NCBI GenBank assembly: GCA_964016885.1
Contig: OZ024740.1
Location: 381,300,001-381,364,000 of the forward strand
Direction of reading: 5' to 3'
From: Eledone cirrhosa
Taxonomy: Eukaryota
Length of the DNA stretch: 64,000 nucleotides
Of this stretch, positions 59,643 through 61,222 are shown piece after piece. Under the pieces are notes generated by a model. The model ran no database searches, was not told the origin of the DNA, and was given only the letters and a program-made list of their open reading frames with translations. Positions within the stretch are counted from its first letter, which is position 1. Each line of letters starts with the position of its first letter. The position numbers and the translations under genes are program-made.

Positions 59643-60057
59643 ATAATAACTAGAAATTGATTAACATATATATACACATGAATAATCACAGGAGATAATT
59701 TTTACAAGCGTGTAACCATGCATAGCTAGGTAGGTAACAAAATAAAGTTGACTAGAACTTCAAAAATAGATACCTTTTAATATGATTAATCATATTAAAA
59801 GGTATCTATTTTTGAAGTTCTAGTCAACTTTATTTTGTTACCTACCTAGCTATGCGTGGTTACACGCTTGTAAAAATCATCTCCTGTGATTATTCATGTT
59901 TATGTATATGTTAATCAATTTCTAGTTATTATAAAATGCTCGGACCTACTCGATAGAATGTTTGAGCTTATTTTCCGGGCGATATGGCGCACGCTGTTAT
60001 GGCATGACACCCATAATTTTGATTTGGATTAAATTCATTTAATTTAGCTTAATTTTG

Positions 60058-60060
<3 letters not shown>
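59643..60060. repeat. Loopless palindrome (about 145-bp arms, centre 59787/59788) plus about 125-bp tail between (TA)n tracts
   Basis: ...aatatgatt|aatcatatt...; arms 59643-59787 and 59788-59933 differ at a few positions. Confidence 0.92.
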
Positions 60061-60091
<31 letters not shown>

Positions 60092-60095
<4 letters not shown>

Positions 60096-60947
60096 GGTCG
60101 TTTGGAAGCCTCGACAATGCAAATGGGTAAATATCCGGGTAACAAGGTCCGGTGGTGGAGAGAGAGATGTAAGTGGGTGTATGTTGAGATGCGTGGTGTG
60201 TATAACGTGTGAGATGTGTAGAATGAAGGGAAGAGTATAAAGGATAAAAATAAAAATAACAACACAAGAGAGAGTTACCTTGGGAGAGATTTAATAGTCC
60301 CTATATATTTCGGATTCACATCCATCAACTGGGATTTTTTTCTGGGGTGGGGGAAAAGGTTGTCTGTCGGACAACTCGGAACGCGTCTTTCGCTGTTTGT
60401 TTGTTGATTTGAAAATCAACAAACAGCGAAAGACGCGTTCCGAGTTGTCCGACAGACAACCTTTTCCCCCACCCCAGAAAAAAATCCCAGTTGATGGATG
60501 TGAATCCGAAATATATAGGGACTATTAAATCTCTCCCAAGGTAACTCTCTCTTGTGTTGTTATTTGCTGTTTGTTTGTTGATTTGAAAATCAACAAACAG
60601 TGAAAGACGCGTTCCGAGTTGTCCGACAGACAACCTTTTCCCCCACCCCAGAAAAAAATCCCAGTTGATGGATGTGAATCCGAAATATATAGGGACTATT
60701 AAATCTCTCCCAAGGTAACTCTCTCTTGTGTTGTTATTTTTATTTTTATCCTTTATACTCTTCCCTTCATTCTACACATCTCACACATGTTATACACACC
60801 ACGCATCTCAACGTACACCCACTTACATCTCTCTCTCCACCACCGGACCTTGTTACCCGGAGATTTACCCATTTGCATTGTCGAGGCTTCCAAACGACCT
60901 AAAGATATTTACTTATTGTTCCACAATGCTTCAAGCAAACTTCAATA

Positions 60948-60952
<5 letters not shown>
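60092..60952. repeat. Fold-back element (about 320-bp arms) with 174-bp tandem duplication spanning the apex, about 50-bp tail, (TA)n flanks
   Basis: 60092-60410 is the reverse complement of the right arm ending 60903; 60392-60565 is repeated from 60566. Confidence 0.92.
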
Positions 60953-60987
<35 letters not shown>

Positions 60988-60990
<3 letters not shown>

Positions 60991-61222
60991 ATAATAATAA
61001 ATTTGAAGACTAAAATCCAAAGAGGGCTCGATAAGGATAAATATATATCAAATATATAAGAACCGTAGAGCAAATATTTATTAAAATAACAGATTAAAGT
61101 TTAAGCAAAGAATCGCTGCTTTCACCCTTAACGGGATCTTCTGAAACAGTTTCAGAAGATCCCGTTAAGTGTGAAAGCAGCGATTATTTGCTTAAACTTT
61201 AATCTGTTATTTTAATAAATAT
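60988..61222. repeat. Short fold-back (about 75-bp arms, apex 61148) with left-side tail between (TA)n tracts
   Basis: ...gggatcttctgaaac a gtttcagaagatccc...; arms about 61074-61147 and 61149-61222. Confidence 0.9.

What the first reader, a model, noticed from the sequence alone, without database searches (positions are those of the whole stretch)
59643..61222. Three unrelated asymmetric palindromes stacked in one (TA)n tract: a shared insertion signature
Seen: 59643-60060, 60092-60952 and 60988-61222 share no sequence but have the same design: (TA)n, arm, apex with little or no loop, inverted arm, unpaired 50-125-nt tail, (TA)n. The same design recurs at 13122-15141 and 8668-20935. Inference: one mechanism (microsatellite-targeted PLE-type retrotransposition with fold-back synthesis) repeatedly builds hairpins in these introns; PLE insertion into microsatellites is established, but this density of sequence-unrelated hairpins is notable.
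Basis: partly seen in the sequence, partly recalled or inferred. Interest (0 to 1): 0.75.

Follow-up and report, generated by a model that had tools for sequence, protein, structure and literature searches.

The report
Stacked back-to-back Penelope retrotransposon stumps
The three hairpin-shaped pieces are back-to-back stumps of three common repeat families, two of them Penelope-like jumping genes and one likely carried by such a gene, sitting in TA repeats of an intron; the shape is already described, but one end almost always has a tail and the other does not, which likely means both cut DNA strands start copying the same RNA at two fixed points.

Summary
The three palindromes share no sequence. 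E2 is the end (pLTR) of a 3.3-kb Penelope-like element (PLE) with RT and GIY-YIG. E3 is the end of a Hydra-clade PLE with over 35,000 exact hits. E1 comes from a ~570-nt non-coding tandem repeat with the same end rules. The design is genome-wide: 17 of 27 palindromes in 400 kb of content-blind samples have it (null 3.5%). Stacking is no more than TA targeting predicts. Inverted pLTR, one-sided tail and (TA)n targeting are published. In 179 family insertions, 102 are head-to-head and none tail-to-tail. Of the 80 with both ends classifiable, 78 pair one tailed with one tail-less end. In 40 of those 78 the tailed arm is the shorter one or is tail only, which simple fold-back of one cDNA cannot make. 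Best model: twin priming from two RT start sites on one RNA, often running off its capped 5' end (inferred). This scan has reported the same reading many times on other DNA, including this genome. Read support for this locus and an empty site were not obtained.

The parts
59161..59314 (+). Host exon, laminin EGF domain (upstream of the intron holding the palindromes)
   Evidence: Pfam PF00053 E 6.5e-13 for 59163-59312; splice sites read from sequence
59632..59645 (.). (TA)n tract, 14 nt
59646..59787 (-). E1 tail-less arm (outer end at start site B of the ~570-nt tandem monomer)
59788..59933 (+). E1 second arm; apex on an 8-nt self-complementary word
59934..60060 (+). E1 tail, about 126 nt, ending at start site A
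60061..60092 (.). (TA)16
60093..60412 (-). E2 tail-less arm: pLTR of a 3.3-kb RT + GIY-YIG PLE, running to the family's 5' stop at about -364
60389..60736 (+). 174-nt tandem duplication spanning the E2 apex, seen in no other E2 locus listed
60413..60916 (+). E2 sense arm (with duplication); holds a degenerate minimal-hammerhead-like motif with two core changes
60917..60952 (+). E2 tail; in tandem parents it holds the likely start codon and first codons of the ORF
60953..60987 (.). (TA)17
60988..61073 (-). E3 tail, 86 nt, outer end at start site A
61074..61147 (-). E3 arm: type I hammerhead-like motif with one core change (U4 to A), pLTR of a Hydra-clade PLE
61148..61222 (+). E3 tail-less arm, from the family's 5' stop (-157) to start site B
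61219..61243 (.). (TA)n tract, 25 nt
61637..61777 (+). Next host exon, laminin EGF domain
   Evidence: Pfam PF00053 E 3.4e-10 for 61639-61773
13116..15141 (.). E4, a fourth family with the same design; canonical hammerhead core in each arm; (TA)n at both ends

Best explanation
E2 and E3 are head-to-head insertions of the pLTR ends of two Penelope-like retrotransposons, E1 is a like insertion of a non-coding repeat likely moved by such an enzyme, and each likely formed when the endonuclease cut both strands of a (TA)n tract and the two freed ends primed reverse transcription on one RNA at two fixed start sites. One start site (A) lies at the end of the tail, the other (B) at its beginning. The two cDNAs would be joined at their 3' ends, giving TA, tail-less arm, apex, arm, tail, TA. 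When priming happens in the short leader near the RNA's start, both copies would run off the capped 5' end and leave a short near-perfect hairpin with a family-fixed apex (E2, E3). Shown: parents, TA targeting, two end positions, the one-tailed/one-tail-less rule, arm-length classes, 5' hot spots. Inferred: double-strand cut, simultaneous priming, single RNA, cap and start site, joining step, and the carrier of E1.
For: (1) Parents. E2 continues into an ORF with RVT_1 (E 1.3e-8) and GIY-YIG in a 3.3-kb tandem unit. E3 continues into a 712-aa ORF with the Hydra motifs, present in 30 of 30 aligned sequences, colinear with the E2 ORF (hhalign probability 64, E 6.6e-5). E1 belongs to a 563-574 nt monomer found in head-to-tail arrays. 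(2) Ends. Of 184 insertions mapped, 5 cut by a locus edge were dropped; of 179, 102 are head-to-head, 76 single-orientation, 1 complex, 0 tail-to-tail. Of the 102: 78 A+B, 0 A+A, 2 B+B, 22 with an unclassified end; p 2.6e-21 on the 80 classifiable. (3) Both A and B occur alone as ends of plain insertions (24 and 48 of 76), with TA at the 3' end in 67 of 76 and at the 5' end in 30 of 76. (4) Among the 78: tailed arm is tail only in 14, shorter in 26, equal in 18, longer in 20; 40 versus 20, p 0.013. (5) Arms of one insertion agree at subfamily sites: E1 382 of 432 (222 expected), E2 111 of 132 (69 expected); in the shorter-tailed-arm class 177 of 211 (110 expected). (6) 5' ends pile up: E3 30 of 92 at -165 to -145, E2 11 of 56 at -375 to -350. 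Among the first 100 listed of 1,261 E3 copies with a non-templated letter before -157, it is G 53, A 34, C 13 (counted by eye; G versus C p 7e-7), as expected for a copied cap (recalled knowledge). (7) In vitro, a Poseidon PLE cuts and extends both strands, starts at two internal sites bounding the tail and is predicted to be a dimer (PMC11167929). (8) Raw reads of two other samples show family-level opposite-strand joints.
Against: The three window elements have arms of about equal reach, so each alone is compatible with fold-back; the case rests on family statistics. PMC11167929 saw no difference in start site between top and bottom strands and did not measure pairing per molecule. E3 arm concordance is not above chance (19 of 26, 16.7 expected). 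Arm concordance could also come from later arm-to-arm conversion, and the sites are not independent. Arm classes come from BLAST block ends (25-nt tolerance), and the E1 reference held a 23-nt duplication in its tail that left some ends unclassified. Samples are position-ordered hits on one contig, and six E2 regions were picked for paired hits. The contexts of the extra-G copies were not inspected. E1 has no ORF, no hammerhead match and no identified partner, and its apex is not a family hot spot. No empty site and no locus-spanning read were obtained.
Confidence: 0.62

Rival explanations
1. PLE insertion with fold-back: one cDNA primed at the tail end folds on itself, copies back and is resolved at B; later deletions trim the apex.
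For: Explains arm concordance and the equal or longer-tailed-arm classes (38 of 78), including all three window elements. E1's apex lies on a self-complementary 8-mer.
Against: Predicts a tailed arm at least as long as the other; seen 40 shorter or tail-only versus 20 longer. In L198 a 162-nt tailed arm faces a 2,566-nt tail-less arm. B is also a stand-alone 3' end (48 of 76 singles).
Confidence: 0.15
2. Self-priming on an antisense transcript, with endonuclease-mediated resolution setting the two ends (proposed in PMC3846280; tail attributed to resolution in PMC8557442).
For: Published reading of head-to-head palindromes. It can formally give a short tailed arm if the RNA-derived arm is trimmed to B.
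Against: 5' pile-up with excess G on the sense strand; plain insertions have TA at the sense 3' end (67 of 76); sense-RNA priming at two sites in vitro.
Confidence: 0.12
3. Twin priming on two separate RNA molecules, or on two units of a tandem or circular RNA, not on one stretch copied twice.
For: About 12-16% of subfamily sites differ between arms; E1 and both parents occur as tandems.
Against: Arms are closer within than between insertions in 37 of 40 (E1) and 16 of 17 (E2), which two random transcripts would not give unless one source locus dominates at a time or conversion follows.
Confidence: 0.08
4. The elements are MITE-like or Helentron-like DNA transposons that move as fixed hairpin units.
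For: The best-scoring hits for E1 and E3 are full-length look-alikes flanked by TA; a TA duplication cannot be excluded inside (TA)n.
Against: That uniformity comes from ranking by score. Position-ordered copies have variable apices, single arms and tandem arrays, and run into RT/endonuclease ORFs.
Confidence: 0.02
5. Assembly or library artefact (fold-back chimeric reads).
For: No read spanning this locus was found.
Against: Arms differ by 3-4%; ends follow family-specific A/B sites genome-wide; opposite-strand joints occur in raw reads of two other samples.
Confidence: 0.03

Closest known systems
EN+ Penelope-like element insertions with an inverted 5'-truncated copy and one-sided tail (PMC8557442 passages; PMC3846280 passages)
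   Same: Head-to-head inverted pLTR, tail at one end only, partial tandems, tail holding the ORF's first codons, microsatellite targeting.
   Different: Tails here are about 41, 86 and 126 nt against the 30-40 bp described. The strict one-tailed/one-tail-less pairing regardless of arm length, and tail-only arms, are not stated in the passages read.
Hydra clade of C-terminal EN+ PLEs (PMC8557442, section 11 read whole)
   Same: E3 parent has RWR (for RWK), DKT, CxCx5C, CxxC and CxH, lacks the two cysteines inside GIY-YIG, and inserts in (TA)n.
   Different: Unit is 3.26 kb (described as generally under 3 kb); hammerhead core has a U4-to-A change; over 35,000 exact 25-mer hits. No tree was built.
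Poseidon PAc of Anolis in vitro (PMC11167929, parts 1-2 of 4 read)
   Same: Two internal RT start sites bounding the tail, both strands cut and extended, AT-rich targets, hammerhead not needed.
   Different: PAc starts in an AC-rich stem loop without homology to the target; here all six start sites touch a 4-7 nt AT alternation, although a longer TA run inside the E3 tail is not used. The paper does not model inverted insertions.
Animal non-LTR retrozymes (bioRxiv 10.64898/2026.07.22.740005, part 1 of 5 read)
   Same: E1's parent is a short non-coding tandem monomer apparently moved like a PLE.
   Different: No hammerhead found in the E1 monomer; unit about 570 nt.
L1 twin priming (recalled, no call)
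   Same: Both target strands prime on one RNA and give an inverted 5' part.
   Different: In L1 the second site is variable and the two parts do not overlap; here both sites are fixed and arms usually overlap, giving palindromes.

Membership tests
EN+ Penelope-like element | Single ORF with RT and C-terminal GIY-YIG (E2 parent) | tested here: met
   RVT_1 E 1.3e-8 and GIY-YIG E 3.4e-4 in L306; GIY-YIG above cut-off in L052 and L048
EN+ Penelope-like element | Single ORF with RT and C-terminal GIY-YIG (E3 parent) | tested here: met
   No Pfam or PDB hit, but YRDD and YIG motifs and colinear profile match to the E2 ORF, probability 64, E 6.6e-5
EN+ Penelope-like element | RT/endonuclease ORF in the E1 family | tested here: not met
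   Monomer of 563-574 nt followed directly by the next monomer; E1 can only be non-autonomous
EN+ Penelope-like element | Partial tandems forming pLTRs, inverted 5' copy, one-sided tail | tested here: met
   Tandem units of 3.26 and 3.33 kb, tail running into the ORF; 78 of 80 classifiable head-to-head insertions are tailed at one end
EN+ Penelope-like element | Hammerhead motif in the pLTR | tested here: inconclusive
   E4 canonical core; E3 one core change; E2 two core changes in 21 of 30 loci; E1 none; Rfam found no hammerhead in the window at E<=1; cleavage untested
EN+ Penelope-like element | RT phylogeny with PLE reference clades | not tested
   No named reference set was fetched
Hydra clade (E3 parent) | RWK-type motif, DKT, CxCx5C linker, CxxC and CxH | tested here: met
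   All in the L224 ORF and in 30 of 30 aligned sequences (definition)
Hydra clade (E3 parent) | CCHH absent from the endonuclease | tested here: met
   No cysteine pair between the two halves of the GIY-YIG core in the query and nine homologs printed
Hydra clade (E3 parent) | Insertion into (TA)n | tested here: met
   26 of 31 head-to-head with TA at both ends; 34 of 38 singles with TA at the 3' end
Neptune or Nematis clade (E2 parent) | CCHH plus a cysteine-rich linker, DKG, GxKF | tested here: inconclusive
   These motifs are visible in the translations, but linker spacing was not matched to a clade and no tree was built
Non-LTR retrozyme (E1) | Tandem monomers | tested here: met
   L116-L119, L143 and others
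Non-LTR retrozyme (E1) | Type I hammerhead in each monomer | tested here: not met
   Relaxed descriptor gave only weak chance-like matches in two monomers
MITE / TIR DNA transposon | Symmetric terminal inverted repeats and a fixed unit | tested here: not met
   Ends asymmetric, apex variable, 76 of 179 single-armed
MITE / TIR DNA transposon | Target-site duplication | not testable with these tools
   Hidden inside (TA)n; no empty site available

The most novel reading that the evidence does not exclude
Penelope-like elements integrate as a dimer with a fixed division of labour: the two ends of one double-strand cut prime on one capped RNA, one always at the far and one at the near start site, and run off its 5' end. 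This single step would explain the class's inverted pLTR, one-sided tail and mini-palindromes, and would have left on the order of 100,000 such hairpins from many unrelated families in this genome, with non-coding riders such as E1 using the same two-site signal without a ribozyme.
Probability: 0.55. Interest if true: 0.65.

Novelty: new member of a known kind. Interest (0 to 1): 0.42.

Why it matters
How PLEs make their inverted repeats and tails is named as an open question in PMC8557442 and left open in PMC11167929. The pairing rule and tail-only arms give a sharp prediction for the existing in vitro system. In practice, these hairpins look like MITEs and are likely to be mislabelled in repeat annotation; at about one per 24 kb (17 in 400 kb) they are a large source of intronic long hairpins. 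The locus itself is ordinary.

Tried and rejected
Rfam scan of the window: no hammerhead, only microsatellite-driven miRNA matches and tRNA-like SINE heads. Fixed-unit (MITE-like) reading from top-scoring hits: a ranking artefact (versus 26, 30, 43). A first mapping with unmasked references gave 4 tail-to-tail and several complex calls caused by microsatellites in the references (77 A+B, 0 A+A, 2 B+B of 96); masking removed them. RNA-editing signature: rare A>G 0.0061 versus T>C 0.0066 per site on the sense strand, no excess in this sample. Special stacking: not supported. TA microhomology as the sole determinant of start sites: a longer TA run inside the E3 tail is not a common end. Pfam and PDB searches for the E3 ORF were blank. 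No RNA holder listed; this is no evidence on expression. Read laying gave family-level signal only, with no piece spanning the locus and no empty site. No partner PLE for E1 was found; no dedicated search was made beyond its own loci. Literature searches for twin priming in PLEs found no paper proposing it; the library lacks most subscription journals, and supplements of PMC11167929 and PMC8557442 were not read and may bear on start-site pairing and on these families.

Full report
Setting. The window is G000:C1:381300001-381364000 in a 3.0-Gb genome. The finding lies in an intron between two laminin-EGF exons. The host looks octopus-like to me from genome size and repeats; that is an impression, not a test.

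Observation. The three palindromes, their tails and four TA tracts are present as described, with corrections: E3 points the other way, E2's tail is about 40 nt, and E2 has a 174-nt tandem duplication over its apex. The three share no sequence. In 40 stretches taken at round-number positions (400 kb), a self-BLAST found 27 palindromes; 17 have TA at one arm end and a tail then TA at the other, 4 have TA at one end only, 2 at both, 4 at neither; random intervals give the first pattern in 3.5%. Only 1 of the 27 matched the five families of this window, so many unrelated families share the design. 13116-15141 fits it; 8668-20935 fits only in its outer 513 nt.

Families. Each element is a high-copy repeat: exact-pattern counts are 1,348 and 877 for E1, 2,422 for E2 and 35,562 for E3. 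E2 copies run into an ORF with RT and GIY-YIG in a 3.33-kb tandem unit. E3 copies run into a 712-aa ORF in a 3.26-kb unit; it has no Pfam or PDB hit but aligns end to end with the E2 ORF and carries the Hydra-clade motifs of PMC8557442. In both parents the tail continues straight into the next unit's ORF start, as described for Penelope. E1 derives from a 563-574 nt monomer found in tandem arrays, with no hammerhead match. Hammerhead-like motifs were found in E3 and E4, the only three hits in 64 kb at one core change or fewer, and a more degenerate one in 21 of 30 E2 loci.

End rule. I mapped position-ordered hits on contig C1 (100 E1, 40 E2 and 64 E3 loci, with overlaps merged; six E2 regions were picked for paired hits) to real tandem units. 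Of 184 insertions, 5 cut by a locus edge were dropped. Of 179: 102 head-to-head, 76 single, 1 complex, none tail-to-tail. Of the 102, 78 have one end at the tail's end (A) and one at its start (B), 0 are A+A, 2 are B+B, and 22 have an unclassified end; p 2.6e-21 on the 80; 82 of 102 have TA at both ends. Single insertions end at A (24) or B (48), so both are independent start points. Among the 78, the tailed arm is tail only in 14, shorter in 26, equal in 18 and longer in 20 (junctions). In the first two classes each arm holds sequence the other lacks, so neither can be a fold-back copy of the other; later deletion should not make the tailed arm shorter twice as often as longer (40 versus 20, p 0.013).

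One RNA. Arms of an insertion are closer to each other than to other copies in 37 of 40 (E1), 16 of 17 (E2) and 9 of 13 (E3, not significant). Concordance at subfamily sites also holds in the shorter-tailed-arm class, 177 of 211 against 110 expected. Later conversion between arms could add to this.

Apex. 5' ends pile up at -165 to -145 in E3 (30 of 92) and -375 to -350 in E2 (11 of 56); both inner ends are there in 8 of 31 and 2 of 19 head-to-head insertions. The window's E3 and E2 apices lie at these spots. The E3 spot is an initiator-like word (label recalled) just before the hammerhead. Of the first 100 listed of 1,261 copies with a non-templated letter in front of it, 53 have G, 34 A, 13 C (by eye; contexts not inspected). 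This fits run-off at a capped start. E1 has no such hot spot; its apex is a self-complementary 8-mer.

Mechanism. Likely: endonuclease cuts both strands of (TA)n, which is its own complement; the two 3' ends prime at A and B on one sense RNA; the A copy either stalls behind the B copy (short or tail-only arm) or displaces it; the two cDNAs are joined, with small overlaps or gaps at the junction. Priming near the RNA's start gives short hairpins; one priming near the start and one at the far pLTR gives the textbook inverted pLTR plus ORF (L198). PMC11167929 supplies the two start sites, extension of both strands and a predicted dimer, but saw no strand difference in start site. Each insertion leaves TA on both sides, so later ones can stack; the rate seen (17 of 358 flanks) is near that beside any TA tract (46 of 1265) and above random windows (1.6%).

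Reads. No RNA holder was listed. Short reads and contigs gave family-level depth and opposite-strand joints in two other samples, but nothing spanning this locus.

What is known. Inverted copy, one-sided 30-40 bp tail and (TA)n targeting: PMC8557442 (passages; section 11). Palindromic junctions read as antisense self-priming: PMC3846280 (passages). Opposite-strand hammerhead pairs 100-700 bp apart: PMC4209133 (passages). Retrozymes as non-autonomous PLEs: bioRxiv 10.64898/2026.07.22.740005 (part 1 of 5). An Octopus repeat annotation lists Penelope families and does not contain the word palindrome (PMC13282606, passages). Searches found no paper proposing twin priming for PLEs; the library is incomplete and supplements were not read. 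The scan's own notes hold this reading many times, in this and other genomes; I reached it before the look-up, and those notes are not independent support.

Verdict. Real, ordinary at this locus, a new member of a known kind. The family statistics make a named open question testable. Interest 0.42.

Noticed in passing
window 56110-58531: An older head-to-head pair (arms 88% alike) around an endonuclease ORF on the minus strand (57194-57850) that is 34% identical to the E3 parent's C-terminus; not TA-flanked at the arm ends.
   Followed up: partly
window 13891-14284: E4's centre is a 14-nt unit repeated about 25 times on one side and about 3 times inverted on the other; possibly reiterative copying at the junction.
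   Followed up: no
window 34470-41400: 6.8-kb minisatellite of a 28-nt unit, about 247 copies, strongly T-skewed.
   Followed up: no
window 8668-9180 and 20400-20935; L014, L192, L318: A fifth family whose tail-less end abuts (TA)n while its tailed end is followed by (AC)n in several loci.
   Followed up: partly
window 1612-3264, 9211-12500, 19100-20350, 23990-24920, 55300-55750: Several copies of a LINE with APE and RT-like frames, with their 3' ends next to TA tracts; the RTE label is recalled.
   Followed up: no
window 8640-8667; loose ends: A GC-rich hairpin end resembling a Helitron 3' end (recalled) abuts the left end of 8668-20935, and the same motif is joined to E3's site B in over 500 reads in each of two samples.
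   Followed up: no
window 61342-61399, 44550-44607: tRNA-like heads of a SINE family (Rfam tRNA 32.1 and 28.5 bits).
   Followed up: no
E3 and E2 parents (L224, L306): Both hammerhead-like cores carry the same U4-to-A change, in two distant PLE clades; whether they cleave is unknown.
   Followed up: partly
L226:4628-6232: A further Hydra-like ORF with asparagine-rich inserts, distinct from the E3 parent.
   Followed up: no
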